This document shows, piece by piece, positions 20,126 through 63,978 of a DNA stretch of 64,000 bases. The notes beneath the pieces were generated by a model, which had not been told where the DNA came from, made no database searches, and saw only the letters and a program-made list of their open reading frames with translations. Every line of letters begins with the position of its first letter. Within the stretch, counting starts at the first letter, position 1. The stretch covers positions 29,698,001 to 29,762,000 of the forward strand of contig OZ024754.1 of assembly GCA_964016885.1 (NCBI GenBank). The letters run 5' to 3'. Origin of the DNA: Eledone cirrhosa (taxonomy: Eukaryota). A program made the position numbers and the translations under genes.

Positions 20126-20674
20126 CTTGAATCTCAGTCATTGATGTTAGTTAACTGGAAAGTCCGTTGGAATGAATATCAAGCCACTACCTGCAGCCTC
20201 AGATATTCAGGACGTATCGGGGGGTTCTTGCTGTTCCCAGCAAGCATGCCTTTTGAAGCTTTCCAAAAAGCGTGAAGGGGCCGATTTTCTTTAACCATCC
20301 CTGGAAACTTTTGGAGATAGTCCCTAGTGCGCCTATGACAATCGGGATCACTTTGACTTCATGGCAGTTCCAAATCCTTTTTACCTCCCACTTTAATTCC
20401 TGGTATCGGTTAATTTTCTCCCTCCCCTTCTCTTGCACTCTCGTGTCGAATGGGCAGGCCACATCCACAATCAGGCACGATCTTTTTTCTTTGTCCACAA
20501 CCACCAGGTCAGGTCTATTGTGTTCCAGTTTTTTGTCCGTCTGTATCCTAAAATCCCACAGCACCTTCACCTGATTGTTCTCCATCACCGCCTCTGGCCT
20601 ATGCTCATACCATTTCTCAGAATGTGGTAGCTTGTTTACTTTGCACAGGTGCCAGTGGATCACCCTGCCCATCA

Positions 20675-20676
<2 letters not shown>
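20125..20676 (-). mobile_element. Dong family A copy 6 (duplicate of copy 4)
   Basis: ORF 20199..20675 translates the same as 16253..16729 and has the same truncation point. Confidence 0.95.
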
Positions 20677-20754
<78 letters not shown>

Positions 20755-20755
<1 letters not shown>

Positions 20756-21698: not shown

Positions 21699-21737
21699 TT
21701 TATTATTATTATTATTATTATTATTGTTATTGTTATT

Positions 21738-26208: not shown

Positions 26209-26248
<40 letters not shown>

Positions 26249-26268
26249 GTTATTATTTTCATTATTTT

Positions 26269-28004
26269 GGTGACCTACGTACTAAATCGTACTATCGTGA
26301 GCTCCGCAAAGGTTTGTTATTTTCAGTTGTTTAAAATTGACATTTATGGAAAATTGTTATTGTTAACTGTATATAAGTGCACATACATTCTTTTCTGAAA
26401 AGGACACTCAAAAAGATTGGGGCCTTGAGCCCAAAATTTAAACTTTTATAATTATGAAACAAAGATTTTTCTTTGAAAAATCAAGGACGACTCAGGGTCA
26501 CATCTTCCTCACAAACTAACACCTCACACCGACACCACCATTGTAAATATTACTACGTTTGCCAACACTAAAAATATAAGCAGTAGAAATATTTTAAATT
26601 TGTCTCAGGCAGACATTCATTTCCCGCCATTACCAATGACGGCAGGTGTTAAAGCCGCCACCCCCCACCACCACCACAGCGACAACAGAAACAAAAGAAA
26701 AAAATTAATTAACTCGTGATATCGAAATGAATTCAACCAAAATGAACTCTTCCACACCAAAAACCACTGACACCACCACCACAACTGAAACTAAAATTAA
26801 CAATAACAAAAATAACGATAACAACAGCAACAATGAAATTAAGAAAACGTTTTGCGAGAGTAGCAAAACAGTGCGAAGCATTTCAGGTAACTCAGGAGGA
26901 ATTAGAAGAAGCCAAACAAATGGTAAAGAAAGATGGGTACAGGGTCAGCCTCAACCCCCTCCCCCCTCTAATAAAATGGAGCATAGGCGCCTATGCACCG
27001 TGTCTTATCGAACAATTAACATAAAATCGCGCCGAGTGGAACGGGCATCCGTGTCCCAAATCCACAAAGCTTTGGGACATGTGTGGGCAAAAAAACCCCA
27101 CATCAGACGTGGACAGAAATATGGAACCGTGGACGTGTTCTTTGAAACACCACAGGAGGCTAGAGAACACTCCATGGCCTCATTAAGAAGTGACGACTTC
27201 ACACTCGTCCCAAGCTATTGTGGCCAGAGACTCGTAAAGATCAGGGTGACCCACGTTCCACCGGCCATCGAAATTCCTTGGCTAATAGCTGCCGTCCTCG
27301 CCGGCATCGAAGCCAACACCAAGATAATCGAAATAGTGAAAGAAAAGCAGGAGAACTGGTCCGGATCTGGGATGGAACTCCTGATCCAAGCGGACCAAAA
27401 AAGCATTGAGGAGATCCCAGAGGTAATAAACCTCACTGACGGCAGCCACCACACCGTATTTGTCGAGGGCAGAAGGCCTAGGTGTGTCGTTTGTGGTGAA
27501 GGAACCCACCTAAGGGCTTTCTGCCCTCAGGCTAAAAGGTTGAGGCCACCTCTCCTACCCACACCAGTGACTCAACCATCAACACCACCAGCAGCAGAGA
27601 TGGCAGCAACAACTGTAGCAGCAACAACAGAAGCAACTGTAACAGCAACAATCCCAGCAACAGTAGCAAAACCAACACCACCACCACCCAACACGCCAGA
27701 ACTAACACCAGTGCCTACACCATCCACCACGCCACAAACAAAAACTAACGCCTGTGGAGGATTTTCCACTCCCCGGCCTATCACAACTGGAGACAGATTG
27801 TGATGACGAGGAGTGGGGAACGGTATCTGGAAAAAAGTAAAAAAAGAAACCAAAAAAGAAAAAAATTCTCTTCCTTCCCCCTCCAAAAACAAAATACAGA
27901 GGGAAACAAATAAACTATCAAACAAAAAAGTTAGGACAGATATGCTACCATCCACACCAGCATCACCAACCCCATCACCACAAACACCAACACCATCACC
28001 ATCA
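26269..28004 (+). mobile_element. Tx1/L1-clade element, segment A: 5' UTR and frameshifted ORF1
   Basis: Starts GGTGACCTACGT directly after (TTA)n. ORF 26727..27803 has an RRM-like GQKYGTVDVFF and a gag-type knuckle CVVCGEGTHLRAFC. Homologous to segment B. Confidence 0.9.
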
Positions 28005-28013
28005 CTTCCTCTC

Positions 28014-29839
28014 GGCCCAAAGCCAACCGCCTTCGGGACTGCCGCTAGGTAACGATGGTCGACCCTATCGAAAGCTTTCGACTGATCTAAATTGATCAAG
28101 GACCCACCCGTGCCAGGTTTCCTAGCTACCCTCTCTACAATATATCGCATGAGGTGGAGGTTGTTGTGGATGGATCTGTCGGGAATGGCGCACGTTTGCG
28201 CCTCTCCCACCAGACCCTTGACGACAAGCGCCAACCTCGTTGTTAACACCTTGGCCAAAATCTTGAACTCTGCGTTTAGCAGGGTTATGGGCCTGAAATT
28301 ATCAATAACATCCCCCTTGTTCGGATCCTTTCTCAGCAGCGCCACAGCTCCTCGGCTCACAGAGTTGGAAATTCTCCCGTTCTGTTGCCAATTGCAGTAG
28401 ACGTCCGCCAAGAGGCCTCCGAACAAATCTGGCATTTGTACGTAAAGTTCATAGGGCAGACCATCCAAACCAGGCGATTTACCCCTTGTGCAGCCAGTCA
28501 TTGCCTACCGTTATTCAGCGGCTGTTATCGGCTTTTCGCAACACTCCGCCTCAGTGGCCGAGAGCTGCGGCAGTCCATCGAGGTAGACACTAAAGTCCAT
28601 CCCTCGATTCGGCCCGCCGCTACCCCCGAACAGCTGGGCGAAGTGTCGCTGGAAAGCTTCACACATTTTCCCGGGATCGAGTAGCATGCGCCCGTCGTGA
28701 TCCATCAAAGACCGGATCGTGGCTTTGTTGCTACGACGCGCCTCCGCCGCTCGAGCCCTTTGAACGGCTTTCGTCCCATCGTGTCTGAGAGCACGCACCC
28801 TAGCTCTGACAACGTAGCCTTCGTGCTTTACATTGAAGAATTGGTCAAGGGCCAATTTCACCGCAAGTACGTCGGTCGCGATGCCTTTGCTAAGCCCCTC
28901 GTCTAATTTTCTAACTAATTCTCCCTCTGCTCTTTTTTTTGCTAAAGCCTTACTAAACCTAATGGACACTATTCTAATTTCTCTTTTCAGAGCAAACCAC
29001 CACCTGTTGTTGACGATGGCCCCCGTCAACGCCCGCTTAACTAGTTCGCTAATCCGGTCTCTGTAGGCCTTGCGCGCTGGTAAGGACGCGTTTAGCTTCC
29101 AGTAGCCGGGTCCTCGTCTATGAAGCCTATCTAAGTCAAGCACACAGATCACGAATTTGTGGTCTGTGTAGCTGACTATCTAGAATTGTGGACAGCCTAT
29201 GCTAGACCTATCTATTTCCCTACAAAATACTCTATCTAGATATGATCTGGATGACCCTATGCGATTTGTCCAAGTCCACATTGGTACATTCGGGAAATCC
29301 AATCGGTACCTGTCAGACAGTTCAAAACGCCTAAGCAGGTTGGTGAGACTCTTGCACCCTCCTTCCCTATCCACTAATCCCACACAATCCCAGCGTGCAT
29401 CTAAGATCCCGTTCCAGTCGCCCACTAACACTAAAGAGCGGGACGTTCCAAGAAAGGTCTCCAGACGCCGGAAGAAATCAGGCCGCCCTGCTCCTGTCGG
29501 GGCATAGACGGCCACTAACCTGAAAGCTTGCCCGTCTCCGCTGGTCACGTCCAGCACCACCAACTTACCTTCTGGGTCCAGGAAGATGGCCCGTATGGCA
29601 AGATCCAAACCTCTCCGAAAAAGCACAGCAACTCCTCCCCCCGATCCCGGACGGCTGGGAGATGCGTACACATCGTAGCCGCCGAAGATCGGTGCGAAAG
29701 CCTGTGCTTCGGAGATTCTGGTCTCGCTGATGGCCACTACATCTATGTTTAGTGACCTGAGGTCGTTGTGCAGGTGGCCCTGCTTCCATGACGACCCCAA
29801 GCCACGCGCATTTATGCTGCCTATTCTGAGTGAGGTCAT
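28014..29839 (-). pseudogene. Tx1 ORF2 N-terminal half (APE endonuclease, linker, RT start)
   Basis: GSINARGL, VAISETR, VYAP, GDWN, YLDRVF, TDHK, GPGYWKLN, KSPGLDGLP, NFRPITLLN, LDQSKAFDRV. Stops at 29180 and 28511. Confidence 0.92.
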
Positions 29840-29873
29840 GTTGAAAAGGAGTGGAAAAGATGGGAAAGACCAC

Positions 29874-31872
29874 TTACCTTACTTCTCGTAGGGGAAGGAC
29901 GGCTTTTCCATCCTTTTCACTGCTTGTGGCCTCCTCAGGAAGGATGTCCTTATAAATCCTCCTGGAGAGTGCTTGTCGGAAGTCTCCGATGTCTTTGGGG
30001 AATTTTTGTTTTAGTGTCATGTACGTTTTCTGTGTGATGCGAGTGATTTGTATGTGTGCAGGTGGTGTGAATTTTGGGGTTGTTGTGTAGTCTTTTTCTG
30101 TGATGCTGGTGTTGTGTTGGATGTAGTGTAATAATTGCTTGTTGTTCAAATTTGATGCTGTGTAGTGTGTATCGTTTTGGTTGTTTTGTTTTGTTTGCGT
30201 TTGTTGTGGGTTTGTTTCTATTTCGCATTTTGGTGACTTTTGTGGTGTAGGTGATGGTGGTGTTGGAGTTAATGATGGTGATGGTGTTGGTGTTTGGGTT
30301 GATGGGGTTGGTGATGCTGGTGTGGATGGTGGCATATCTGTCCTAACTTTTTTGTTTCTTAGTTTATTTGTTTCCCTCTGTATTTTGTTTTTGGAGGGGG
30401 AAGGAAGAGAATTTTTTCTTTTTTGGTTTCTTTTTTTTTTTTCCGGATATCGTTTCCCACTCCTCGTCGTCCCAATCTGTCTCCAGTTGTGATAGGCCGG
30501 GGAGTGGAAAATCCTCCACAGCTGTTAGTTTTGGTTGAGGTGTGGTGGATGGTGTAGGCGCTGGTGCTAGTTCTGAAGCGTTGGGTGGTGGTGGTGTTGG
30601 TTTTGCTGGTGGTGGTAGTGGTGTTGGTTTTGCTACTGTTGCTGGGGTTGTTGCTGTTATAGTTGCTTCTGTTGTTGCTGCTACAGTTGTTGCTGCCATC
30701 TCTGCTACTGGTGGTGTTGATGGTTGTGTCACTGGGGTGGGTAGGAGAGGTGGCCTCAACCTTTTAGCCTGAGGGCAGAAAGCCCTTAGGTGGGTTCCTT
30801 CACCACAAACGACACACCTAGGTCTTCTGCCCTCGACAATTACCGTGAGGTGGCTGCCGTCGTTGAGGTCTATTACCTCTGAGATCTCCTCAATGCTTTT
30901 TTGGTCCGCTTGGATCAGGAGCTCCATCCCAGATCCGGACCAGTTTTCCTGCTTTTCTTTTGCTACTGCTATTATTTTCGTGTTGGCTTCGATGCCGGCG
31001 AGGACAGCCGCTATTAGCCAGGGAATTTCGATGGCCGGTGGAACGTGGGTCACCCTGATCTTTACGAGTCTCTGGCCACAATAGCTTGGGACGAGTGTGA
31101 GGTCGTCACTTTTTAATGGGGCCATGGAGTGTTCTCTAGCCTCCTCTGGTGTTTCAAAGAACACATCCACGGTTCCATACTTTTGCCCACGTCTGATGTG
31201 GGTTTTTCTTGCCCACACATGTCCCAAAGCTTTTTGGATTTGGGACTCGGATGCCCGTTCCACTCGGCGCGATTTTACATTTATTGTTCTATACGACACG
31301 GTGCACAGGCGCCGATGCTCCATTTTATTAGGTGGGGGGGTGAGGCTGACCCTGTACCCATCTTTCTTTACCATTTGTTTGGCATTTTCTAAATCTTCTT
31401 GAGTTACCGTGAACGCTTCGAATTGTTTTGCTACGATGGCGAAACTGAGGGTCGGTTTTATAATGTCATTGTTGTTGTTGTTGCTATCGTTAATATTAAT
31501 TTTAATTTCAGTTGTGGTGGTGGTGGTGACGTCAGTCGTCTTTGGTGGGGAAGAGTCCATTTTGCTTGATTTCATTTCGACGTCACGAGTTAATTTATTT
31601 TTTTCTTCTTTTGTTTCTGTTGTCGCGGTGGTGGTGGTGGTGGTGGTGGTGGTGGTTGTCGCGGTGGTGGTGGTGGTGGAGGGTTTAACGCCTGCAGGCA
31701 TTGGTAATGGCGGGAAATGAATGTCTGCCTGAGACAAATTTAAAATATTGCTACTGCTTATATTTTTTTTTGTGTTGGCAAACGTAGTAACATTTACAAT
31801 GGTGGTGTCGGTGTGAGGTGTTATTTTGTGAGGAAGGCTTTCAGCTGCTTCGTGCAGAGGGGAATTAGCCAT
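29874..31872 (-). pseudogene. Tx1 ORF1 (nucleic-acid-binding, CCHC knuckle, Pro/Thr-rich), frameshifted near 30430
   Basis: ORFs 30364..31872 and 29874..30335, containing RPRCVVCGEGTHLRAFCPQ. Confidence 0.85.
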
Positions 31873-32081
31873 TTTTTTTCAAAGAAAATTTTGGATAATA
31901 ATAAAAGTTAAAATTTTGGGCACAAGGCCCCAATTTTTTTGGGTGTCCTTTTCGGAAAACAATGTATGTGTGCTTATAAACAGTTTACAATAAAATTTTC
32001 CATAAATGGCAATTTTTAAACAAACGGAAATAACAAACCTCTGCGGAGCTCACGATAATACGATTTCCTACGTAGGTCGCC

Positions 32082-32120
<39 letters not shown>
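32082..32120. repeat. (AAT)n tract, the only one in the cluster in reversed orientation
   Basis: All other tracts between 7.1 and 36.15 kb read (TTA)n on +. Confidence 0.97.
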
Positions 32121-32121
<1 letters not shown>

Positions 32122-33436
32122 TTTTCTTTATTAACCACAAGGTTTTACATAAAGTAGACATTAAGGACAGTACAGGACAATACAGGACGTTACAAATGGG
32201 CATTTCTGCGTGTAATAAAAAAATAACAATGAAAAATTCCCCAATAGGGGGAGACTTCCGAGGGACATTTGTGGAGAAAGCCCATTAAAAGGCCACAGTG
32301 ACCCTGACCACCAGGGCAAGTGCCCTCTCCCAGTTTTCCACCTTTAATTTACAGACACATACTCAGAGTAGGCCCATTCACTCGGGCCATACTTGCTTCT
32401 CTCACCCATCTTTCAACAAAATGCTGGGAAGAGAGCACTTCCCTCTCTACCCTGATTTTCCTTTTCAAATGAAATTTGAAAAAGTTAATCAGGGCATCAC
32501 CGAAGAAGTGAGTGCTCGTCTTCAGCCCTTTCAAACGTATTCACCATACTATCTCTTTCGCCATGGTCACCAGACAGATAAAAACTGCCTGCCCTTCCCG
32601 GCTAAAGGAAGAGGGCGGGGCAATCCTCACGATGGACTCAGCTGATAGCTGGATCCGCCCTACACGTGACAGCAGGTGTTCGACATAAACCCACAAGTCA
32701 GCAATGCTCGGACACTGGACGAGTGCATGCAGGACGGTTTCATCGCCCTGCGCGCATCTCGGACATGCCCGGCTGACGGCACCTCCATGCCTGTAGAGTT
32801 TATCCCGAACTGGCAAAGCTCCTCGGTAGCACTGCCAGGCCAGGGATTTCTGGAAGTTGTCCATAGGCCCCGGCCCGAAAGTTCTCCCGAAGAGATTGGC
32901 TAGTTGAATTTCGTCGACGCCTAGAGTTTCTCCAAGTACGTCGTCTATCTTCCCCTCCACTAATTCTCTATAGAACGCCAAGGTGGAGTTTCCAACGATC
33001 ACATTGCCCGATTGGTCGAGGGCTGTGAGCGCCTGAAGACATTCCAGTCACCAAGCGCTCTCTCTCGGTCTTCGCTTAACCCAGGACTGCAACTCCGCCA
33101 AGGAGACGAGCTGGGGAAAGACGTGTCTAGCAAACGGAGACCACACCTGATGACCGTCGAGGAAGAGGTGGAGATGTCGTAGCCTGAGCGCGTGTCTGCG
33201 CATCATAAGCCTCGGCATGCCCAGACCTCCACATAGCGGGTATTGACAGCAGATGGACCGCCTGACCATCGGAGCGCGTCGCTTCCACAAAAAGCGAAAG
33301 AGCAAACGCTCCAGCGCAGTCAGGCGGGGCTTAGGACAAGTTACGACGGTCAGGCGGTAGTAGATGACGGACGCGATGTACGCGTTAGCCACCTCCGTTC
33401 GGCCTTTCAGGGATAGCTTCCTCTCGGCCCATTTCT
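32121..33436 (-). mobile_element. Tx1-clade element, segment C: ORF2 C-terminus and 3' UTR
   Basis: From KWAERKLSL through CPRCAQGDETVLHALVQC to the 3' end TTAATAAAGAAAAC plus (ATT)n. Confidence 0.92.
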
Positions 33437-36095
33437 ACCAATTCTTCAATGCAAAGCACGAAGGCTGCGTTGTCAGAGCTAGGGTGCGTGCTCTCAGACA
33501 CGAGGGGACGAAAGCCGTTCAATGGGCCCGAGTGGCGGAGGCGCGTCGTGGCAACAAAGCCACGATCCGGTCTTTGGTGGACCACGACGGGCGCATGCTA
33601 CTCGATCCCGGGCAAATGTGTGAAGCTTTTCAGCGACACTTCGCTCAACTGTTCGGGGGCAGTGGCGGGCCGGATCGAGGGATGGACTTTAGTGTCTACC
33701 TCGACGGACTGCCGCGGCTTTCGTCCACTGAGGCGGAGTGTTGCGAAAAGCCGATAACAACCGCTGAAGTACGGGGGCAATGACTGGCTGCACAAGGGGT
33801 AAATCGCCTGGTTTGGATGGTCTGCCCTATGAACTTTACGTACAAATGCCAAACTTGTTCGGAGGCCTCTTGGCGGACGTCTACTGCAACTGGCAACAGA
33901 ACGGGAGAATTCCCAGCTCTGTGAGCCGAGGAGCGGTGGCGCTGCTGAGAAAGGATCCGAACAAGGGGGATAACATAGATAATTTTAGGCCCATAACTCT
34001 GCTAAACACAGAGTTCAAGATTTTGGCCAAGGTGCTAGCAAAGAGGTTGGCGCTTGTCGTTGGTGGTCTGGTGGGAGAGGCACAGACATGCGCCATTCCC
34101 GACAGATCCATCCACGACAACCTCCACCTCATGCGATACATCGTAGAGAGGGTAGCTAGGGAACCTGGCACGGGTGGGTCTTTGATCAATTTAGATCAGT
34201 CGAAAGCCTTCGATAGGGTCGACCATCGTTACCTAGCGGCAGTCCTGAGGGCGGCTGGCTTTGGGCCCGTCTTCAGAGGCTGGATCGCTGCCATGCACAG
34301 CGACATCTGCTCTGTAGTGAGAGTGAACGGTCACCTTTCGGAACCGTTCAACATCATGCGCTCGGTCCGCCAAGGATGTCCCCTCTCGTCCCTATTGTAC
34401 GTATTGACTCTCGAGCCATTACTGCACAAACTGGAGACGTTGAGGGGGGTCCCGCGCGAACTAGGATGCGGAAGATCCGTGTCAGCATATGCCGACGATG
34501 TCACCGTAGTGGTGTCGAACGCCAAACACATCGAGGCGATCGGCACTACACTAAGAGAATACGAAGCGGTGACAGGAGCAATGATCAACCAGGAAAAGTC
34601 AGTGGGCCTGCAGCTCGGCACCTGGAGAGGCAGGTCCATGCCGTCCAACAGCGTCGTCGGGCGCTGGACGGACGGACCGGTTAAATTGCTAGGGGTCTGG
34701 TTCGGTCTAGACCTCCAGACGGACAAAAACTGGGACGAGGTGACGAGCAGGGTGGCTTCTCTCACCCAGAAATGGGCCGAGAGGAAGCTATCCCTGAAAG
34801 GTCGAGCGGAGGTGGCGAATGCGTACATCGCATCCGTCATCTACTACCGCCTGACCGTCGTACCTTGTCCTAAGCCCCGCCTGACTGCGCTGGAGCGTTT
34901 GCTCTTTCGCTTCTTGTGGAAGGGACGCACTCCGATGGTCAGGCGGTCCATCTGCTGTCAACACCCGCTACGTGGAGGGCTGGGCATGCCGTGGCTGATG
35001 ATGCGCAGACACGCGCTCAGGCTACGACATCTCCACCTCTTCCTCGACGGTGATCAGGTGTGGTCGCCGTTTGCAAGACACGTTTTTCCCCAGCTCGTCT
35101 CCTTGACGGAGCTGCAGTCCTGGGTCAAGCGAAGACCGAGAGGGAGCGCTTGGAGACTGGAATGTCTTCAGGCGCTCACAGCCCTCGACCAATCGGGCAA
35201 TGTGATCGGTGGAAACTCCACCTTGGCGTTCTATAGGGGATTAGTGGAGGGGAAGAGCGACGACGTACTTGCAGAAACTCTAGGCGTCGACGAAAATCAA
35301 CTAGCCAATCTCTTCGGAAGGACTTTCGGGCCGGGGCCTATGGACAACTTCCAGAAATCCCTGGCCTGGCAGTGCTACCGAGGAGCTTTGCCAGTTCGGG
35401 ATAAACTCTACAGGCATGGAGGTGCCGTCAGCCGGGCATGTCCGAGATGCGCGCAGGGCGACGAAACCGTCCTGCACGCACTCGTCCAGTGTCCGAGCAT
35501 TGCTGACTTGTGGGTTTATGTCGAACACCTGCTGTCACGTGTAGGACGGATCCAGCTATCAGCTGAGTCCATCGTGAGGATTGCCCCGCCCCCACCTTTA
35601 GCCTGGAAGGGCAGGCAGTTTTTATCTGTCTGGTGGCCATGGCGAAAGAGATAGTATGGTGGACACGTTTGAAAGGGCTGAAGACGAGCACTTACCTCTT
35701 CGGTGATGCCCTGATTAACTTTTTCAAATTTCATTTGAAAAGGAAAATCAGGGTAGAGAGGGAAGTGCTCTCTTCCCAGCATTTTGTTGAAAGATGGGTG
35801 AGAGAAGCAAGTATGGCCCGAATGAATGGGCCTTATCTGAGTATGTGTCTGTAAATTAAAGGTGGAAAACTGGGAGAGGGCACTTGCCCTGGTGGTCAGG
35901 GCCACTGTGGTCTTTTAATGGGCTTTCTCCACAAATGTCCCTTGGAAGTCTCCCCCTATTGGGGAATTTTTCTTTGTTATTTTATTTCAACCTCTGTTTT
36001 TTTACACGCAGAAATGCCCATTTGTACCGTCCTGTATTGTCCTGTACTGTCCTTAATGTCTACTTTATGTGAACCCTTGTGGTTAATAAAGAAAA

Positions 36096-36096
<1 letters not shown>
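33437..36096 (+). mobile_element. Tx1-clade element, segment D: ORF2 linker, RT, CCHC finger, 3' UTR and (TTA)n tail
   Basis: ORFs 33364..33783, 33780..35654 and 35633..35854 (two frameshifts). Motifs VRQGCPLS, AYADDV and CPRC...H...C. AATAAA just before the tail. Confidence 0.94.
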
Positions 36097-36150
<54 letters not shown>

Positions 36151-38710: not shown

Positions 38711-38732
38711 ATCTATATATCTGTGTTTGTGT

Positions 38733-39850
38733 CACCATCACAGTTATCACCATCACAGTTATCACCATCATAGTTATCACCATCACAGTTATCTCCATCA
38801 CAGTTATCTCCATCACAGTTATCACCATCACAGTTATCACCATCACAGTTATCACCATCACAGTTATCACCATCACAGTTATCACCATCACAGTTATCAC
38901 CATCAAAGTTATCACCATAACAGTTATCACCATCACAGTTATCACCATCATAGTTATCACCATAACAGTTATCCCCATCACAGTTATCACCATCACAGTT
39001 ATCACCATCACAGTTATCACCATCACAGTTATCACCATCACAGTTATCACCATCACAGTTATCCCCATCACAGTTATCACCATCACAGTTATCTCCATCA
39101 CAGTTATCACCATCACAGTTATCACCATCACAGTTATCACCATCACAGTTATCACCATCACAGTTATCACCATCACAGTTATCACCATCAAAGTTATCAC
39201 CATAACAGTTATCACCATCACAGTTATCACCATCATAGTTATCACCATAACAGTTATCCCCATCACAGTTATCACCATCACAGTTATCCCCATCACAGTT
39301 ATCACCATCACAGTTATCTCCATCACAGTTATCTCCATCACAGTTATCACCATCACAGTTATCTCCATCACAGTTATCACCATCACAGTTATCTCCATCA
39401 CAGTTATCACCATCACAGTTATCTCCATCACAGTTATCACCATCATAGTTATCTCCATCACAGTTATCACCATCATAGTTATCACCATAACAGTTATCAC
39501 CATCACAGTTATCACCATCACAGTTATCACCATCACAGTTATCACCATAACAGTTATCACCATCACAGTTATCACCATCACAGTTATCACCATCACAGTT
39601 ATCTCCATCACAGTTATCACCATCATAGTTATCTCCATCACAGTTATCACCATCATAGTTATCACCATAACAGTTATCACCATCACAGTTATCACCATCA
39701 CAGTTATCTCCATCACAGTTATCTCCAACACAGTTATCACCATCATAGTTATCTCCATCACAGTTATCTCCAACACAGTTATCACCATCACAGTTATCTC
39801 CATCACAGTTATCACCATCACAGTTATCACCATCACAGTTATCATCAGAA
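38733..39850. repeat. 15-bp minisatellite (ATCACCATCACAGTT)n, ~74 units
   Basis: Directly visible, with recurrent single-base variants. It decays at the right edge to ~39905. Confidence 0.97.
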
Positions 39851-41454
39851 CAATTATCACCATCGTAGTTTTCACCGTCATAGTTATCAACGATATTGTT
39901 GTCAACGTCTTATATCCCACGTATTTATGTTTTATGTGAAAAACTGAAAAACAAATGTTCAATAGATGACAACCTATAGGTTTAATATCTCTCTAACATT
40001 CCAATATGTCGTATGTTTACAATAATAATATATATTTCATGTTCGATTCCCTTAAGAATAACTACAGCTTTTTAAATGCCTGTTGGCGACTGCGGTTGAT
40101 GAAGTTATTCATCCAGTTTCTACAAAAATTATAGATGATGCGAATAAATATAGCTTGATTGAGAAGAAGCTAATAACTGAAAAAAAATGTGTAAACTAAT
40201 TTCATCATTTCTAAGGAAGGTATCATTTCCGTTTGATGCTGAAGCTATATGTTGTTCTTTGACCAACATTGATCTTGACAATGAATATTTACCGTGTTAA
40301 GAGCATCTAAACACTATCAGCAAAAGTTAATTGATTTGAAATATTTGATTAAATCTATAAAGTAAAGATGCCAAATGCGATGATATTGCTTCAGATTAGC
40401 TTTAACCTCTGCTGTTGCTATAGAATTTACAGATGCTTAAAGTAACAACGTACAACACTACCACACAATTTGGTTGTTCATATTCTGTCATCGACTCAGC
40501 GTTATGTCTACCGTGGTAAAGATGTTTAACTATCAAGCACTCAGTCATATCTATAAATTGATATGACTGAACGTTTCCCTAAATAAATACCAGGTATTGA
40601 CTGACTTTCCTTTTTGCATTTGTTGCTAAAGAAACCTGAAGTGTCCTCGGTCCCTGGACAGGCATTTTCCTCTGCAAAACTGGGGGCAGGGCATCACGCC
40701 AAAGAAAGGAATCCCATGAAACGGAGTAGCTAATGCAAGCCGGTATCGCTGTCTGTTCACCGTGACAAATATTTCGTCATTTTGTCCGCCGCGGGGAAGA
40801 GGTAAGATATACCAACTAGCCAATGTTATAGACTATGTTACCTCCCCCTATTTTCGTTGTTCATTCTTTTCCGTTTTTTAATTTTTTCTTTCTTGGTTTT
40901 CATTATGATATTGTAAATAATTAAGTCAAGAAATATTCTTTTGTTTCATATATATGATTTGCCTCAACTTTTGTCTTTTCCAGGTCTTTTAAAAATGTAC
41001 ACTCTAGTACTTGGGTCGATTCACCCTATCTATCTCTTTCTTACATCTCTTCTCTTACTCTCTTTGTCCTTCTCTGGGAAAAATCTGCTATGTTCAGACT
41101 TGGAGACGGGATGGACTCTGCAAAATTTTGTAAATGCCCACCACATAGTGTATGTCTCTATGGTGGCCCCTACGATTCCATCATGAGTTTTACACACATG
41201 AATACTAATATTCAAATTTCACGTACAAGACATTAGTGAAGTCTAGGCTATGATAGAAATCAATTACCTACGGCAAAATGCCAACTAGTTACACTGAAGA
41301 CGAAATAAAACGGTTGCAAACCAAACTCCCTAACCACATAGTCATGCCTATATAAAAACAAACTAGATATTTCTATCACCATAAAAAAAATACTTCTTTA
41401 AATAGTCAATTCAGAGCAATAGAAGTATGTACTTGCATACCTGAACGTATGGTT

Positions 41455-42263: not shown

Positions 42264-42483
42264 CGTTTCTGAATTTGTTTAGCAAGATTCTTTATCTGAA
42301 ATCGTGTGTTGAAACCGATATTGTTATAATTTGGGAGGGTCATGTTGCCAATGAGAAACACACGCACCAGTTGCTTTCACTTCAATTTATTATATATTTA
42401 TAAATTTATAAGTTTACAAATCTACAAATTTATAAATTTCCGGTTGGTTGGTTGGTTCCACAACCAGATAGTTGTTTATATAT

Positions 42484-42528
42484 AGTCATAGTCCTTTCGT
42501 CACACACTCTGTGACCTCTTCAGTGACT
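42484..42528 (-). ncRNA. Minimal hammerhead ribozyme motif
   Basis: Reverse complement: AGTCA CTGAAGA G GTCACA GAGTG TGTGAC GAAA G GA C T A TGACT; predicted triplet CUA. Confidence 0.78.
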
Positions 42529-43462
42529 GGGGATTCCTTTCTTTGTTTCTGTGCCTTTCCTTTCTTCTGTCCTACGCCATTTTGTTTCTGTGTGTGTGTT
42601 ATCGGCTCAGTTTGCGCATGCGCCACATCCGGGTGTCTGTGTGTGTTTGTGTTCATTTATCTATTTGTTTATTTATTTACATGTTGTTGGTTGGTTGTTT
42701 GTTCTATGTGTGTGTGTGTTTTCATTTTGTCATTAATTGTAAGTTGTGATGTTGCTGTTCCACTCATATTTTCTATTTAATTTTGGTTGTAATTCTTTTA
42801 TGTTTACTGTCTCTGTAATTTGTCTAAACATTGCATCTTTTCTGTGTGTAGATTCTATTTTTATTTCTATGTTCTCTAATTTACCCTTGTGTTCTATCTT
42901 AGCATGTTGGTAGAGTACAGATGGTTCTTTATTATCTTGAAGGTCTCGCCAGTGTTCATTTATCCGTTCCCCTATACTACGCCAGTGTTCATTTATCCGT
43001 TCCCCTATTCGTAGTATAGGGGAACGGATAAATGAACACTGGCGAGACCTTCAAGATAATAAAGAATCATCTGTACTCTACCAACATGCTAAGATAGAAC
43101 ACAAGGGTAAATTAGAGAACATAGAAATAAAAATAGAATCTACACACAGAAAAGATGCAATGTTTAGACAAATTACAGAGGCAGTAAACATAAAAGAATT
43201 ACAACCAAAATTAAATAGAAAATATGAGTGGAACAGCAACATCACAACTTACAATTAAGGACAAAATGAAAACACACACACACATAGAACAAACAACCAA
43301 CCAACAACATGTAAATAAATAAACAAATAGATAAATGAACACAAACACACACAGACACCCGGATGTGGCGCATGCACAAACTGAGCACACAACACACACA
43401 CAGAAACAAAATGGCGTAGGACAGAAGAAAGGAAAGGCACAGAAACAAAGAAAGGAATCCCC

Positions 43463-43507
43463 AGTCACTGAAGAGGTCACAGAGTGTGTGACGAAAGGAC
43501 TATGACT
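43463..43507 (+). ncRNA. Minimal hammerhead ribozyme motif
   Basis: AGTCA CTGAAGA G GTCACA GAGTG TGTGAC GAAA G GA C T A TGACT. Differences from the 4774 copy fall in loops, the H17 position and the outer end of helix I. Confidence 0.8.
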
Positions 43508-43679
43508 ATATATAAACAACTATCTGGTTGTGGAACCAACCAACCAGAAATTTATAAATTTGTAGATTTGTAAACTTATAAATTTATAAATATATAATAA
43601 ATTGAAGTGAAAGCAACTGGTGCGTGTGTTTCTTATTGGCAACATGACCCTCCCAAAGTATAACAATATATATATATAT

Positions 43680-57488: not shown

Positions 57489-57795
57489 TAGAAAATGAAA
57501 GTTTTTTTCAAATTGAAAGAAAAGACGAGATGTCCTACAGGAGTGAAAGTATAAGGAAAGAAGATGAAATCGAAAATGCAACTGGAGCCTTTTTAAAAAT
57601 ACTTATTTGGTTCCTTTATCGGTTTCACAGGACGGAGGGTTTGTAGTTTTTCTCGCATCTGCGAGAAAAACCACAAACCCTCCATCTCAATTCTACTTTT
57701 GAAAAGCATAAGAACTGTGAAACTGGTAAAGGAACCAAATAAGTGTTCTTAAAAAGACTCTAGTTGCATTTTCGATTTCATCTTTTTTCCTTATA
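57489..57795. mobile_element. PLE-3: fold-back pair of pLTR ends with a decayed hammerhead
   Basis: 57551-57630 is inverted at 57715-57795, with an inner 24-bp hairpin at 57635-57684. CTT-TTGAAAA-GCA..TGT-GAAACTGGTA-AAG resembles a mutated hammerhead. Confidence 0.6.
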
Positions 57796-58277
57796 TATAT
57801 ATATATATGAGTCTCTGGTTCAATCGGGGGTAACCATAGTAAGTAAAGTACTCAATACATTAGTAGAGTATATACAAAATTTAATATAGAAATGGCTTCT
57901 ACGGGACAAGAATTGTTTCATTCGGAGGAAATCATCACTTTTAAGATTTTATTCAATATCGAACGCGACATATATTTCGCAGATGATCGGCTCACGTTCT
58001 TAACCCTCATGAAATTTCCTGTAGAATCCTTGTCGGCGTCTTCCAACTCTTTGTGACCTTTGACAAAAAACAAAAAAACAAAACCAAAGCGGTCGTGCAC
58101 CTTTCAAGAAGCAAGCAATCTCTAATTCCCTATGCTCTTTGTTTAAGGCAATGATTGCAGTGTCCCTTTTCTGAAATCTGGATGCTTTGCATCATTTATC
58201 AGAAAATAAATGATAATCAGGACAAATTAGAAAAATGTATGTTTGAGCTATTAAAAGACATACCATATATATATACC

Positions 58278-59361
58278 AGATAGAAAAATGCGTACAGCAA
58301 AAAAAAGTAATATTGTTGGAATATAAACCTTTAAAAATACAGGACAAGAAACTAAAATAAAACTTTAAAAGAATAGGACAAGAAACTAAGATAAAACTTT
58401 AAAAGAATAGGACAAGAGACTAAGATAAAACTTTAAAGAATTGGGCAAGAAATAAAAAATTTTACAATAATATTAGTGGCAAAATTTTTATTGGTAAAAA
58501 ATCGAGTTCCACATTCATAGGCTCTGGGTTCCACATTCAGAGGTCGTCGTCAGACCGGGGGGATCATTTGATCCTGGTTTGAACACCAATTGGGCCATAA
58601 CCATACCCCTATTTCATCATTCGGCGACACGCCTCATGTGTCATGCATAATGTGAATGGACCCATGGGCCCATGAGCACATATCTTGAGCAGCAGCGGAC
58701 GGTCTTGTCGTCCCGATCATCCTTGACCAACTCGTCCATCTTCTCCTTGCATCTTGTCCTTGAGTTCAAGTCCGGCAGTTCAGATGAATGCGTGCCACAG
58801 CTTTCTGGTACAGGAAGGGGGAGCAGGAGGACTGGAGGGATGACGGGACACAGAGGGAGGGAGGACCGGTCGTTGAGGGAGGTGCCGTAGTCGGTAGTCA
58901 GAGTCGACATCTTGTCCCGGTCGCCTTCTCCATCTTCGTCTGGTGTTCCGGGACCAGAAGTGCATTCTTGGAGGAGACCTGCAGCTGCATCGGCCAATTC
59001 TTCTTGCAATGGTCATTCTGACGGAGCAGAACTGCTCAGCCAACCAACCCCAACCAGAACCAACCGCTCAGGGGCAACGCACAATGAGAGCATGACAATT
59101 ATTATGCACTAATCAAGAGGAAATTGGGGCACAGCACAGGAAACGAATAAAAACATTTTGCCACTAATATTATTGTAAATTTTTTTATTTCTTGTCCAAT
59201 TCTTTAAAGTTTTTTCTTAGTTTCTTGTCCTATTCTTTTAAAGTTTTATCTTAGTTCCTTGTCCTATTCTTTTAAAGTTTTATTTTAGTTTCTTGCCTGT
59301 ATTTTTAAAGGTTTATATTCCAACAATATTACTTTTTTTTGCTGTACGCATTTTTCTATCT
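58278..59361. repeat. ~215-bp inverted repeats (58278-58493 / 59146-59361), each with ~3.5 copies of a ~33-bp unit
   Basis: AGATAGAAAAATGCGTACAGC...GGACAAGAAACTAAGATAAAACTTTAAAAGAATA repeats, mirrored on the right. Confidence 0.93.
58641..59009 (-). CDS. GC-rich exon-like ORF, acidic N-terminal part, possible degenerate PHD-type finger
   Basis: RCKEKMD...TVRCCSRYVLMGPWVHSHY loosely resembles C..C..WVH..C. A candidate acceptor CTCCGTCAG lies upstream. Confidence 0.3.
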   Translation of the reverse strand: MQEELADAAAGLLQECTSGPGTPDEDGEGDRDKMSTLTTDYGTSLNDRSSLPLCPVIPPVLLLPLPVPESCGTHSSELPDLNSRTRCKEKMDELVKDDRDDKTVRCCSRYVLMGPWVHSHYA

Positions 59362-59637
59362 AGTCTACTATTTTTTAAGGGAATGCAAGCAACAACTATC
59401 TAATAATTAAATGATCATAGTGAATTACTGACAAGTGATTGATATTTTAAAGTTCTTTTGAGTATAATTGCAATCTAGTTGAGGCAACTGGCTTAATGAC
59501 AAAGCTAGAAAATCATGAATGTATTTGAGATGATTAGTGCATAATAGTGAATTGGTGAAACTTGTGCATTTCAATGGTGTTACAGCAATAGATGTAAGTT
59601 ATATAGTAGTAATACTTTATCATTTTAACTTTTTAGA

Positions 59638-59997
59638 ATGGACAAAAACCCATGCAAAGAAATGACTTTGACTGCAGTGATTCTCTCCAATTTACTTACA
59701 AAGCAAAACGTGGTCAAATACCTTATCATCTCTGATAAAATGCCCATTGAATCACTGAAAATCGGATGCATGGAATTCCTCATAAAATGCACCTATGAAT
59801 CGGAAGCCATCACATATATCAATGGATATAGGGAGTTGTTCACACTGGAAGACCATCACTTCATTTGTGACTTCATCAGTTATCTCCACAATTATCTCAG
59901 ACACCCAATGCCATTGATGAGAGGTGATCCAATGTGTGAGCATGTAACTAATCTTATAGAAGTTGTTATCGACCACCTGGCTTTTAGTGACATTTGA
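59638..59997 (+). CDS. 119-aa protein with a BACK/SPOP-C-terminal-like helical motif
   Basis: ATG-to-stop ORF. ILSNLLTKQNVVKYLIISDKMPIESLKIGCMEFL fits the pattern L..L...NV...L..AD......LK..C..FI. Preceded by GTAAGT...TTTTAG (59594-59636). Confidence 0.5.
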   Translation: MDKNPCKEMTLTAVILSNLLTKQNVVKYLIISDKMPIESLKIGCMEFLIKCTYESEAITYINGYRELFTLEDHHFICDFISYLHNYLRHPMPLMRGDPMCEHVTNLIEVVIDHLAFSDI

Positions 59998-60177
59998 CTG
60001 ATTTGACTGATAATGATGTATTTTTAAAAAGTATGTGTACATTCTTGTTACTATTTTAAGGCAATGCAAGCAACAACTATTTAATAAAATTTAAATTTAA
60101 AAATGACCATTGTGCATTACTAGTATGATGGCATTTTATTAAGTCACAAAATTAGTCAGTCAGCCATAGAACAAGGA

Positions 60178-60913
60178 TCAGGTGGCAAGTACATTGGCAA
60201 AAATGTGTGTCAATTTAAGATTTCCAACATTGTTCAAATGAATCATATCTGGTTTGAAATCAGATTTGTCAAATTTTGACCAATTTTCAATGTTGTGAAG
60301 ATTGGGCAAGTTCAATTTTTGAATCATTTCTTTCATGCAGTAATTAAACTTTTCCAAACGAGAATTTCTCTTGCCCAAGTCATTTTTATTTTCAATTACA
60401 CTTTGTGGACGTGGAATGACACCACTGTAGAAAATGGGTGTACAGTGGTGCTTTTCCGCTATTTTCTGTAGCCTTTCAAAGAGACTCTTCCCCTGTTTTT
60501 CCGGTTTTGGGCCTCGAATGGGCACTTTGTCCTTAATTTACAAATAAATGATTAATAAAAAAATACTTGGGCAAAAATTATTGTATTAATTTGCACAGCT
60601 TTGTAGTGCCAACGGTGCGACGAGGATTCAGATCATTAGAGCCGACATGAACCACCAATACTTTCACAAAAGGACAACAGATAACAATGTTGGCGATTAA
60701 CATTACCTGGCCCTGATACAAAATATCTAAGTATTTTTGTTGATATGATAAGTAAATACATTTGAATTAATATTTTTATACCTTCTGGTCATTCGATTTC
60801 GCCACATTTCTAATTATGGATTTGTAAAAACTGGCATGAATGTGAATTTGATCAGTCCAATTGCCCGATTTTAGTGAAAAGTTTTGATTTGAAATGGAAA
60901 TACTCCGTGCCAT
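60178..60913 (-). pseudogene. SGNH/GDSL hydrolase gene in three blocks separated by ~65-70-nt AT-rich intron-like gaps
   Basis: Block I-like FYKSIIRNV (exon from ATG 60913 to 60782, GT at 60781). Block III VLVVHVGSNDL (~60630-60662). YSGVIPR and block V DMIHLNNVG lie in ORF 60178..60525. Frames do not splice cleanly. Confidence 0.7.
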
Positions 60914-61861
60914 GGAAAAAAAGAATAAGCCGATCAAAAAGCCGCGAAACATCATTTTTAATTAAGCGAAATTAGTGGATGCAAATCTCAGAAAATATTG
61001 TACACTATTCGCACCTATCGCACTATTCGCACCTATCGGTACAAAAAATCGCACGACTGTTAATAATACTAGAAGTGCAAACTATCTGTTGAATACCTGG
61101 AATATGAAGAGCAACCGATACAATCGGTCGGCGATCGGTCTTGAAGAAGAATGAAGAATGAAGTGAAATTTTGGTCTGGTTGTTGTCATCGGTGTTTCGC
61201 AGAGATGCCGGCACGAACAAAGGTGTCAGTGACACAAAGTTGTCCGCTTGAACAAAGGTGTCGGTCCGACAAAGGTGTCAGTCAGACAGACAGTCAGACA
61301 GTGTCACAGTCGGTGCGACAAAGCGGTCGATGCGATTAAAAAAAATTTAACTCACATGTTTACCTATATTTTCGCAAACTATTGATAGATTGGTACAAAA
61401 AATAGCTTTGATAATAAACATAAATTTAAGTATTTAAATTAAAGTATTTAAAAAGCATTTTAGCAGTGAAAAGAGAAGTAATGTTTCACACTGACGCAAG
61501 TAGGGCCGTTCAGAAATGATGTAGTCAATTAGGAGGAGGGGATTCGGCGATTTGACTACATTTGACTAACGTAATCACAATCACAAGAGTTCCGCCGAAA
61601 AAAATTTGTCATTTCTGGATTACCTCCCCTAGCGTCACGCTTACTACTCACTTGAACACAAGATTTATCAGCAAACTTTGATTATAAACTTTTTCCCGCT
61701 GGACCAAATTTCTAGATATTTAAGCCAAAAGATGTGTAATGATCTACTGTTCATGCTCATATAAGTTTTATCTCAGTTAAATAAAGTAGAGCCGCGCTGT
61801 ACTGTCGTAAACAGACGATTGCCAACGAAAACACGACCACAACAATATTACCGTCCGTTTA

Positions 61862-61944
<83 letters not shown>

Positions 61945-61982
61945 GAGAGAGTGAGAGATAGAGATAGATAGATAGATAGATA

Positions 61983-62873
61983 AATTTCTTTATTAGCCAC
62001 AAGGGCACAAAAGAAGGGGACAAATAGAAATGGGGAGTTTACATACAGGTATATGAAAATAAAACTATTAATAAAATAACAAATAACAATTGAAATCCCC
62101 ACTAGGGGAGAGGCGTTACACAGGGGTTGTACACACCCCGAACAAATGTACAACCCTCATCTCCAGGAGCACCAAGAGTGAGTACTCCCTTCCTCTCTTC
62201 CTCTTTTTCCTCAACCTACAGGCTTATATAGAGAGAAGGCCCAACTACTCGGGCCATCTTTGTCACATTCACCCACCTTTTATAAAATTTGCTGGGGTAC
62301 AGCACATCTCTCTCCATCCTGATTCTTCTTCCAAAATGATATTTGAAAAAACGAATCAGTTGCTCGCCGGAGAGAAAGGTGTCTGACCTCAGCCCTTTTA
62401 ACCTCGTCCACCGTATAACCTCTTTCACCATAGCCATAACACATAGAACACATAAAACCGCCTCTCCCTCGATTTTGACGGAGGGTGGCGGTTTGATCAT
62501 GACAATGGACTCGGTGGTCAACTGGATTGGTCCCACCCGCGACAATAGTCGTTCTACATAGCCCCACAGGTCGGTAACGCCCGGGCAGTGTACAAATGCG
62601 TGCGCGACGGTTTCCTCGTCGTGCACGCATCTCGGACAGATCTTTTTCGAAGGGTCCCTACCCGGGCGCCCGTGTCTGTAGAGCTTGTCTCGAACTGGTC
62701 CTACCGAACAGACTGGCCAGTTCGTCCTCCTCTGCGCCTAGAGTTTCTCCGAGCGTGTCGTCGCACTTGCTGCGAACCAACCCTCTATAGAATGTCGAAG
62801 TGGAGTCTCCACTGATCGCCGGGTCCGTTTGCCAGAGGACTGTGAGCGCCTGAGCACATTCGATGTGCCAGTC
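61983..62873 (-). mobile_element. Second Tx1 family, 5'-truncated 3' fragment, inserted in (TATC)n
   Basis: WHIECAQALT...STSTFYRGLV...DDTLGETLG; EETVAHAFVHCP...MVKEVIRWTRLKGL, homologous to segments C/D. (GATA)n lies on both sides. Confidence 0.9.
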
Positions 62874-63582
62874 AGATAGATATATAGATAGAAAGATAGA
62901 TAGATAGGTATACACTAGTGGATCGGTTTATGTACCAGGATTACTGGATATATGAAGAATCATATAAACTGGGAAATTATTTTGATGTATTAATGGTTAT
63001 ATTTTCTAGTTTATGTTGATTATGATACGTGGAAGTCATTAAAGATACACGTGATATATAAATAATTTATTTGTAAAATATATTTACATAAATGTTCGGC
63101 ATATATATACCACCTTCGAATCATTGCGTCCTGGCTCGTGTTTAACATGGTTTTTGCCTGCATTATTTGCAATCAAACCAATGGATCATTCACACACACA
63201 CACACACATACACACATATATATATATATATATACACATTTTAGTACAGCATTAACGAAGCTTTAGGCTGCGGCTAAGCGAACGAATGCAGATTCGGAAT
63301 GTAGCTTTGGCACGATATATATATATATGTATTATGTACATATGTATATGCATATATATTAAATACATATGTATATATATATATATATATATATTTATGG
63401 CCATACTCGATAACGAGGGGGCAGTCATCATATATATATAAGTAGAAGGGATATTTAATTTGTTGGAAATCCGACAAATATAAATATAAATGTTTATAAC
63501 TGATTTAGAGCACTCAACAAGTTCTTGGGGTAAATATTCAATGATATTAAATAAATGGAAACTATATTTATAAAACCATATT

Positions 63583-63645
63583 TATTTTATTATATATATT
63601 TCAAGGGTACCAAAACACTTTGGTACGCTTCCTTCAGATAAAATA
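63583..63645 (-). ncRNA. Hammerhead motif (core CTGAAGG, A9 substituted)
   Basis: Inverted copy of 63814-63876 with one core change. Confidence 0.55.
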
Positions 63646-63813
63646 CAAAGTTTGTTTTATAAATAGACATATACCCAAGAAAATCATACATTATTAGTTG
63701 GATATTCTCTGGATAGTCCAGGGAATATCCAACTGATAAGAATGACTATCCAGAGAATATAACTGATAAGGTATGATTTTCCTGGGCATGTCTCTATTTA
63801 TAAAACAACTTTG

Positions 63814-63876
63814 TATTTTATCTGAAGAAAGCGTACCAAAGTGTTTTGGTACCCTTGAAATATATATAATAAAATA
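63814..63876 (+). ncRNA. Type I hammerhead ribozyme motif with a palindromic helix III
   Basis: TATTTTAT-CTGAAGA-AAGcGTACCAAA-GTGT-TTTGGTACcCTT-GAA-ATATATAT-A-ATAAAATA: 8-bp helix I, long helix II, AUA triplet. Confidence 0.8.
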
Positions 63877-63915
63877 AATATGGTTTTATAAATATAGTTT
63901 GCATTTATTTAATAT

Positions 63916-63978
<63 letters not shown>

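What the first reader, a model, noticed from the sequence alone, without database searches (positions are those of the whole stretch)
57809..61863. Unclassified 4-kb (TA)n-inserted segment carrying a cluster of compact genes
Unlike its surroundings, it is gene-dense and nearly free of microsatellites. It holds an SGNH hydrolase, a BACK-like ORF, a PHD-like exon between long inverted repeats, very short intron-like gaps, and clustered short repeats (CACTATTCGCACCTATCG x2 at 61003; ACAAAG-containing units at 61217-61323). There are no TIRs, tail, RT or transposase. The ends are GAGTCTCTGGTT...AACCATAG (small hairpin) and ...TTACCGTCCGTTTAGGA (TC start on minus). Inference: a deletion derivative of a large cargo-carrying element (tyrosine-recombinase/Crypton-like, Helitron-like or viral) that targets (TA)n.
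Basis: partly seen in the sequence, partly recalled or inferred. Interest (0 to 1): 0.75.

Follow-up and report, generated by a model that had tools for sequence, protein, structure and literature searches.

The report
Helitron-like element carrying tiny-intron genes
This is a multi-copy 3.6-kb piece of DNA, likely from an octopus-like animal, that has Helitron-type end letters and carries small genes with predicted tiny introns and no close database relatives; it is likely a passenger transposon copied by a rolling-circle enzyme made elsewhere in the genome.

Summary
The segment is real, repeated and likely mobile, but it is two modules, split by an internal (TA)5. The family unit is 58276-61864. 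On the minus strand it reads A|TC...CTGG|T, the Helitron1 end pattern; only 1 of 52 TA-bounded ends in the window has both letters. The internal inverted arm is a second such end (CTAG|T). Public contigs of three organisms hold the family. They show nested deletions that all rejoin a fixed ~256-bp 5' cap at 61608/61609, with different sets in two samples of one species. Cargo: a three-exon SGNH gene (broken in this copy) and a BTB/BACK-like ORF, with predicted 43-58-nt introns and no sequence homolog found. The PHD call is not confirmed. No mobilising enzyme lies in or beside it. Best reading: a non-autonomous Helitron-like composite (0.55). Against: a very weak 3' hairpin, no Rep-helicase seen, and contigs that run 49-222 nt past the right end. 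Rivals: TIR/foldback, CryptonV-like, viral remnant. The left 456 bp is a separate, rarer module with a fourth spliced gene fragment.

The parts
58276..61864 (-). Family unit: predicted non-autonomous Helitron-like element, 3,589 bp, A|TC ... CTGG|T
   Evidence: End letters read directly; contig depth of about 560-2,770 across it in run X1, against 5-116 just left of it
61608..61864 (-). Fixed 5' cap (~256 bp). Starts TC; imperfect terminal hairpin (61808-61861); 12-mer at 61840-61851 that recurs inverted in the left arm; small palindrome at 61631-61641
   Evidence: Three deletion joints land at 61608/61609; hairpin score reached by 41 of 1500 random 60-mers; 12-mer shared in 3 of 300 shuffles; palindrome
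61003..61323 (.). Short tandem repeats (18-mer x2; 17-bp ACAAAG units) upstream of the SGNH gene; function not tested
60178..60913 (-). Predicted three-exon SGNH/GDSL hydrolase gene (introns 60727-60781, 55 nt; 60532-60589, 58 nt); this copy has a frameshift in exon 2 and a lost donor at intron 2
   Evidence: Motifs SIIR, GSND, DMIH read directly; Pfam E=0.0065; Atlas; contigs of X1, X4, X5 differ from the window at both breaks
59638..59997 (+). 119-aa stand-alone BTB/BACK-like ORF, with predicted 43-nt introns just before (59594-59636) and after (60018-60060)
   Evidence: no homolog among 64-207-residue proteins
59143..59363 (+). Right arm: inverted second copy of the 3' end, finishing CTAG|T where arm homology stops
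58496..59142 (.). GC-rich core (53% GC), likely a decayed captured coding fragment; PHD identity unconfirmed
   Evidence: depth about 2,000-2,270 in X1
58276..58495 (-). Left arm: predicted 3' terminus with 34-bp subrepeats, ending CTGG|T at the (TA)5; arm sequence is shared with far commoner repeat families
   Evidence: bin depth 26,868 in X1 and 305 in X5
57809..58264 (-). Separate left module: 3' fragment of a predicted spliced gene (58190-57918, 43-nt intron 58058-58100), plus an end region (57861-57937) shared with very high-copy tandem/foldback repeats
   Evidence: depth 5 for the 57896-58141 contig and about 500,000 at 57903 in X1
61865..61910 (.). Right TA microsatellite flank
58265..58275 (.). 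Internal (TA)5: left flank of the family unit

Best explanation
The stretch 58276-61864 is a multi-copy element with A|TC and CTRR|T ends that is likely a non-autonomous Helitron-like transposon, likely copied by a rolling-circle Rep-helicase supplied from elsewhere in a likely octopod genome. SHOWN: the end letters; the repeated nature; the nested deletion joints behind a fixed 256-bp cap; the cargo reading frames; the lack of an enzyme gene. INFERRED: the enzyme nicks at the 5' TC of the cap, copies one strand through the cargo, passes the inverted inner end (which faces the wrong way to stop it), stops at CTGG, and pastes the copy between A and T in a TA run. INFERRED: the nested forms arose when the short cap was joined to different points of a longer cargo-bearing ancestor (self-insertion or template jump), and each new cap-plus-remainder unit was then amplified. 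INFERRED: the SGNH and BACK-like genes are passengers or accessory genes of a larger parent element. The left 456-bp module is a neighbour in the same TA tract, or a rare read-through past CTGG.
For: Ends: 1 of 52 TA-bounded stretch-strand ends in the window has both letters, 6 have the 5' one and 2 the 3' one. The two arms differ at the third base of the end word and both stay within CTRR; their homology stops there. No TSD or terminal TIR. A 12-mer lies 13 nt into the 5' end and inverted 31 nt from the 3' end (3 of 300 shuffles), like a Helitron2 asymmetric repeat (PMC3627910, passages). Repeated: 8 of 12 listed runs hold part of it, 3 of them half or more, in 4 studies; all 30 bins have depth in X1 and X4, 28 in X5, 19 in X6. 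Young: 47 substitutions in 3,054 letters against the 7 listed X4 pieces. Joints 59507, 59776 and 60360 all rejoin at 61608/61609, and depth steps down from 2,598 to 584 and returns to about 2,300-2,770 in the cap. Short 5' modules stacked by self-insertion, and end-bypass, are described for Helitrons (PMC5148889 sections 3 and 16). Contigs keep the SGNH introns in the sense direction (records 5, 14, 21), which argues for a DNA route.
Against: No Rep-helicase in the segment or in about 7 kb of flanks, so the mobiliser is unseen. The 3' hairpin is only a 3-bp stem, -1.2 kcal/mol, not the usual 16-20-nt hairpin (recalled). The A^T target comes free inside a TA run. The CTRR reading was found after looking at several candidate ends. 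Contigs continue 222 nt (X4, depth 22.6), 49 nt (X5) and 53 nt (X6) past 61851, where the tool masked a repeat, so other copies may not end at 61864. In X5 the core has about half the depth of the cap and post-arm (0.45 against 0.87-1.0), and the contig crosses the arm end without a break, which fits a symmetric foldback there. The 5' copy of the 12-mer is 13 nt in, not 0-2 nt. Contig depth is not copy number (tool caveat).
Confidence: 0.55

Rival explanations
1. A TIR/foldback composite (Mutator-, Zisupton- or Galileo-like). The 220-bp arms with 34-bp subrepeats are terminal inverted repeats of a cut-and-paste family, and the fixed cap boundary is a transposon end that made adjacent deletions.
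For: Arms 95% identical with tandem subrepeats; arm and left-end motifs shared with very high-copy foldback-type repeats, with opposite-strand joints; half-depth core in X5; other foldbacks in the window; Zisupton, Novosib and Merlin types reported as mostly cephalopod among molluscs (PMC10294476, passages).
Against: No TSD around arm-core-arm in four boundary settings. The core is no commoner than the post-arm DNA or the cap, so arm-core-arm does not seem to travel alone. Adjacent deletions are one-off events and would need a second mechanism to reach similar high depths.
Confidence: 0.2
2. A CryptonV-like element: a tyrosine recombinase excises it as a circle and inserts it into microsatellites, and the fixed breakpoint is a recombination site.
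For: Some CryptonV families insert specifically in microsatellites (PMC8869645, passage). Animal Cryptons lack terminal repeats and have non-autonomous forms that keep 5' and 3' ends (PMC3212892, passages). Loose ends beside the left-end motif are often (TA)n or (TG)n.
Against: No recombinase motif. The deletion partners share no obvious sequence. It does not explain why both arms stop at CTRR|T.
Confidence: 0.12
3. A remnant of an integrated large DNA virus with compact spliced genes, later amplified.
For: Small divergent genes with 43-58-nt introns and no homolog; a 16-mer occurs upstream of both the core and the BACK-like ORF, although 14 of 200 shuffles give such a pair.
Against: No relative of either protein in IMG/VR (that set is mostly phages, recalled). 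No viral hallmark gene. Helitron-type ends.
Confidence: 0.08
4. Ordinary single-copy host genes between chance microsatellites.
For: TA runs are dense here.
Against: A run of only 88 million contig letters holds 0.45 of the words; deletion forms and high relative depth; this copy is broken where other copies are not.
Confidence: 0.02

Closest known systems
Non-autonomous Helitron1 (canonical Helitron) elements with captured genes
   Same: 5' TC, 3' CTRR, between A and T, no TSD, no TIR, cargo, no own enzyme, stacked or chimeric ends (definition from PMC3627910 and PMC5148889, passages and sections read).
   Different: Almost no 3' hairpin; a second, inverted 3' end inside; cargo appears as whole spliced genes with tiny introns and no database homolog, not as host exon fragments; nested deletions share one breakpoint.
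Helitron2 / Helentron / DINE-HINE elements
   Same: Imperfect 5' terminal hairpin; a 12-bp inverted motif about 30 nt from the 3' end; tandem subrepeats near an end.
   Different: The 5' copy of the motif is 13 nt in, not 0-2; ends are TC/CTRR at A^T rather than T^T; the 3' hairpin is weak.
CryptonV (tyrosine-recombinase DNA transposons that target microsatellites)
   Same: Microsatellite flanks, no TIR or TSD.
   Different: No recombinase seen; Helitron-type end letters. I saw only a one-sentence description of CryptonV (PMC8869645).
SGNH esterases of CR1/L2 ORF1 and Ngaro retroelements (recalled, from no call)
   Same: SGNH fold carried by a mobile element; nearest Atlas clusters are unnamed eukaryotic proteins.
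   Different: Stand-alone gene with two introns kept in the sense direction; no RT; no tail.
Penelope-like elements
   Same: Can keep introns (recalled); one lies in this window between TA runs.
   Different: No hammerhead core in the segment, while the window's Penelope-like copies have them; no Rfam hammerhead hit; no shared sequence.

Membership tests
Helitron1 (non-autonomous) | 5' end TC | tested here: met
   A|TCCT at 61864, minus strand; other copies may extend further
Helitron1 (non-autonomous) | 3' end CTRR | tested here: met
Helitron1 (non-autonomous) | Insertion between A and T without TSD | tested here: inconclusive
   Letters fit, but any insert in (TA)n would; no empty site available
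Helitron1 (non-autonomous) | Hairpin 10-12 nt before the 3' end | tested here: inconclusive
   3-bp stem ending 13 nt before the end, -1.2 kcal/mol; right place, too weak to count
Helitron1 (non-autonomous) | An autonomous Rep-helicase partner with the same ends | not testable with these tools
   None in the segment or flanks; no genome held
Helitron2/Helentron | 5' ATIR 0-2 bp from the end and 3' ATIR 20-30 bp from the end | tested here: not met
   12-mer at 13 nt and 31 nt with the 58276 end; no ATIR with the 57809 end in either orientation
Helitron2/Helentron | Hairpins at both ends | tested here: inconclusive
   5' hairpin: 41 of 1500 random 60-mers score as well, 45 of 200 shuffles fold as well; 3' hairpin weak
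Helitron2/Helentron | Insertion at TT or TTTT^Y | tested here: not met
   Flanks are alternating TA
DDE TIR transposon / foldback | TIRs at the outer ends | tested here: not met
   No inverted repeat joins 57809 or 58276 to 61863 at the termini; the arms pair only with each other
DDE TIR transposon / foldback | Target-site duplication around arm-core-arm | tested here: not met
   Four boundary settings, lengths 2-12
Crypton/CryptonV | Tyrosine recombinase in the family | not testable with these tools
   None in this copy; longer copies not available
Crypton/CryptonV | Specific insertion in microsatellites | tested here: inconclusive
   This copy is TA-flanked; TA runs are dense here; flanks of other copies of the unit were not displayed
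Penelope-like element | pLTR with hammerhead ribozyme, RT and GIY-YIG | tested here: not met
SGNH/GDSL hydrolase | Blocks I (GDS), II (G), III (GxND), V (DxxH) | tested here: inconclusive
   Blocks III and V present; block I keeps a Ser (SIIR) but not Gly-Asp; block II lies at the frameshift; Pfam below cut-off; block definitions recalled
BTB/BACK protein | Profile or fold match | tested here: inconclusive
   Atlas score 0.91 to BTB/BACK clusters; no Pfam BACK hit; single-sequence model pLDDT 39, unusable
PHD finger | C4HC3 pattern in one frame | tested here: not met
   No Pfam hit with stops read as X

The most novel reading that the evidence does not exclude
A distinct octopod lineage of rolling-circle elements with hybrid ends (Helitron1 TC/CTRR plus a Helitron2-like asymmetric repeat) that homes to TA microsatellites, is still diversifying between individuals, and carries working spliced accessory genes (an SGNH esterase and a BACK-only ubiquitin-ligase adaptor mimic) taken from a compact-genome donor such as an unknown DNA virus or a dicyemid kidney parasite (mean intron 38 bp, PMC6736024, passages; the introns here are longer, 43-58 nt).
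Probability: 0.12. Interest if true: 0.72.

Novelty: new variant of a known kind. Interest (0 to 1): 0.42.

Why it matters
Cargo-carrying non-autonomous Helitrons are well known, so the class is not new. Three points lift this one. First, the cargo looks like whole, compact, spliced genes with no close relative among 1.84 billion protein representatives, and other copies lack the breaks seen here, which hints at a larger undescribed parent element or a non-host donor. Second, a fixed 5' cap with nested partners, differing between two samples of one species label, is a natural record of how such elements make new derivatives. Third, the ends mix features of the two Helitron groups and lack a strong hairpin, so structure-based finders could miss the family. 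If the Helitron reading fails, the same data point to an unclassified microsatellite-associated DNA element in cephalopods.

Tried and rejected
Whole genome: none held. Homolog searches: BACK-like ORF 0 hits of 3 candidates; SGNH exon 3, 0 hits at E<=0.001 in 1.84 billion and 0 of 64 longer candidates; PDB sequences gave only chance hits; NCBIfam nothing credible. Single-sequence structure models were too poor to search (pLDDT 39 and 48). IMG/VR: no relative of either protein, no match to the left motif. JGI metagenomes: 0 matches to the cap pattern; 4 matches to the left motif, all limited to 23-26 nt and rejected as chance. Rfam: 12 weak hits, all far below gathering scores. No RNA holder listed; this says nothing on expression. 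Parts without cover in X5 and X6 are not taken as absence. Earlier scan notes: nothing in 5 answered look-ups. Literature searches with no paper holding all terms: octopus+transposon+microsatellite+SGNH; SGNH hydrolase+DNA transposon+PHD+Repbase; octopus+endogenous+large DNA virus+integrated+microsatellite; Helitron+TA microsatellite+insertion preference. The library is partial, and Repbase, Dfam and the repeat library of PMC13282606 (its supplement was listed, not read; its Zenodo file is out of reach) could already hold this family. Rejected: splicing as the cause of the deletion joints (skipped parts are not GT..AG on either strand and carry 1-4 extra letters); 5'-truncated retrotransposition (sense-strand introns kept); LTR end at 61608 (no purine tract or primer site seen by eye; depth steps fit deletion, not insertion); 57809 as the partner end (reads CTCA, no ATIR).
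Full report
Setting. The window is AT-rich, microsatellite-dense animal DNA filled with LINEs, a Penelope-like element and small foldbacks. The only species-named hit among the 120 listed homologs of one LINE is from Argonauta hians, at 67% identity, the highest in the list, so the host is likely an octopod. No whole genome is held, so copy evidence comes from one laying of public contigs.

Observation check. The flanks, end letters, inverted arms, short repeats and lack of microsatellites are as described. The SGNH and BACK-like calls have only weak support: Pfam gives E=0.0065 for SGNH exon 3 and nothing for BACK, while language-model neighbours point to GDSL and BTB/BACK. The PHD exon is not confirmed. 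The left hairpin is at chance level. TA flanks alone say little, since 35 TA clusters lie in 31.7 kb, and one of them, a (TA)5 at 58265-58275, lies inside the reported segment.

Genes. The SGNH gene is on the minus strand, 60913-60178, in three predicted exons with 55- and 58-nt introns of 16% GC. This copy has a frameshift in exon 2 and no GT at the second donor. Contigs from X1, X4 and X5 all differ from the window at exactly those two places (tables 3 and 4), so the breaks belong to this copy and the family likely holds an open gene. The BACK-like ORF (59638-59997, plus) is open, 119 aa, with predicted 43-nt introns on both sides. A fourth, unreported gene fragment lies on the minus strand at 58190-57918; removing a 43-nt GT-AG gap joins two frames into 75 open codons. 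No sequence search found a relative of SGNH or the BACK-like ORF. Splicing is predicted only.

It is a repeat family. Eight of 12 listed runs hold part of the segment, under five organism codes and four studies; only the four laid runs (three organisms, two studies) are used here. X4 has just 88 million contig letters yet holds 0.45 of the words. The window copy differs from the 7 listed X4 pieces by 47 substitutions in 3,054 letters. In X1, contig depth is 2,009-2,268 in the core, 2,598 after the right arm, then 1,886, 1,313, about 1,250 and 584 moving right, and about 2,300-2,770 again from 61608 on. Depth is not copy number, but the steps match three listed joints, from 59507 (X1 643, X5 15.3, X6 5.6), 59776 (X4 29.3) and 60360 (X1 622), all landing at 61608/61609 with 1-4 extra letters. 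Fourteen further joints were not displayed. The two samples of organism A differ: X4 contigs cross 59507 and 60360 unbroken, and an X1 contig crosses 59776 unbroken. This may reflect recent amplification, cryptic species under one label, or contig drop-out. Left of the (TA)5 the picture changes: a contig at depth 5 over 57896-58141 and a bin mean of 116 in X1, but about 500,000 at 57903, where tandem and opposite-strand joints show very common short repeats. So 57809-58264 is a different module.

The ends. Taking the (TA)5 as the left flank, the unit 58276-61864 reads on the minus strand TA|TCCT ... CTGG|TA. Of 52 TA-bounded stretch-strand ends in the window, 6 have the 5' word, 2 the 3' word and only this one both. 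The right arm ends CTAG|T on the plus strand; the two arms differ at that position yet both fit CTRR, and their homology stops there. A 12-mer 13 nt into the 5' end recurs inverted 31 nt from the 3' end (3 of 300 shuffles), and the 5' end forms an imperfect hairpin of modest significance. These match the Helitron1 definition (5' TC, 3' CTRR, A^T) with some Helitron2-like traits (PMC3627910, passages; PMC5148889, passages and sections 3 and 16). The 3' hairpin is only a 3-bp stem.

Mechanism. Most likely (0.55) a Rep-helicase in trans starts at the cap, copies one strand to CTGG and inserts it at A^T. A short 5' module joined to different points of a longer ancestor would give one fixed breakpoint, variable partners and separate amplification of each form, as proposed for stacked 5' termini in Fusarium Helitrons. 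All of this is inference; no enzyme was seen in the segment or about 7 kb of flanks. Three results do not fit neatly. Contigs run on 222, 49 and 53 nt past 61851, next to a stretch that the tool masked. In X5 the core has half the depth of the cap and the contig crosses the arm end unbroken, as a symmetric foldback would. The hairpin is weak. These keep a TIR/foldback reading at 0.2. CryptonV-like (0.12; PMC8869645 and PMC3212892, passages) and viral remnant (0.08) remain possible; single-copy host genes are ruled out for practical purposes.

Comparison and novelty. It works like a non-autonomous cargo Helitron; membership is not shown, because the hairpin test is inconclusive and no partner could be sought. 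A recent Octopus vulgaris annotation lists 8 recently active Helitron families (178 insertions, 765,802 bp, about 4.3 kb each) and 58 unknown families, without describing any (PMC13282606, parts 1-2 of 3 read; supplement listed but not read). Four keyword searches found no paper on such an element, but repeat libraries were not searchable. The tiny introns suggest a compact-genome origin; dicyemid parasites of cephalopods average 38 bp (PMC6736024, passages), shorter than here, so this is only a lead.

Verdict. Real feature; boundaries revised; new variant of a known kind; interest 0.42.

Noticed in passing
window 7093-26263: Tandem array of near-identical (95-99%) restriction-endonuclease-type LINEs (NeSL/Dong-R4-like, name recalled) separated by (AAT)n runs, with nested 5' truncations and several long open ORFs (1,083-1,141 aa).
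   Followed up: no
window 1743-5159 and 42318-43669: Penelope-like element between TA runs with inverted ends, and a 1.35-kb foldback made of the same ends; hammerhead-core motifs at 2089(-), 4778(+), 42523(-), 43468(+).
   Followed up: partly
window 26231-36135: Tx1/L1-like LINEs arranged as nested inverted duplications (86-95% identical arms).
   Followed up: no
window 57861-57937: Motif shared with extremely abundant short repeats (contig depth about 500,000 in X1) that show 71-78-bp tandem units, foldback joints and (TA)n or (TG)n flanks; an unnamed high-copy family.
   Followed up: partly
window 57489-57791: Small TA-flanked imperfect palindrome next to the finding; its minus-strand end also reads CTAA|T.
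   Followed up: no
window 59373-59453 and 60054-60144: 72% identical direct repeat beginning at a predicted intron acceptor; suggests an older duplication of a gene's 3' region inside the cargo.
   Followed up: partly
window 38732-39889: 15-bp minisatellite, 77 copies, open in several frames.
   Followed up: no
window 61982-62873: 5'-truncated Tx1-like LINE end inserted in the compound (TA)(GA)(GATA) microsatellite right of the finding.
   Followed up: no
window 63531-63928: 398-bp TA-flanked foldback, 88% palindromic.
   Followed up: no
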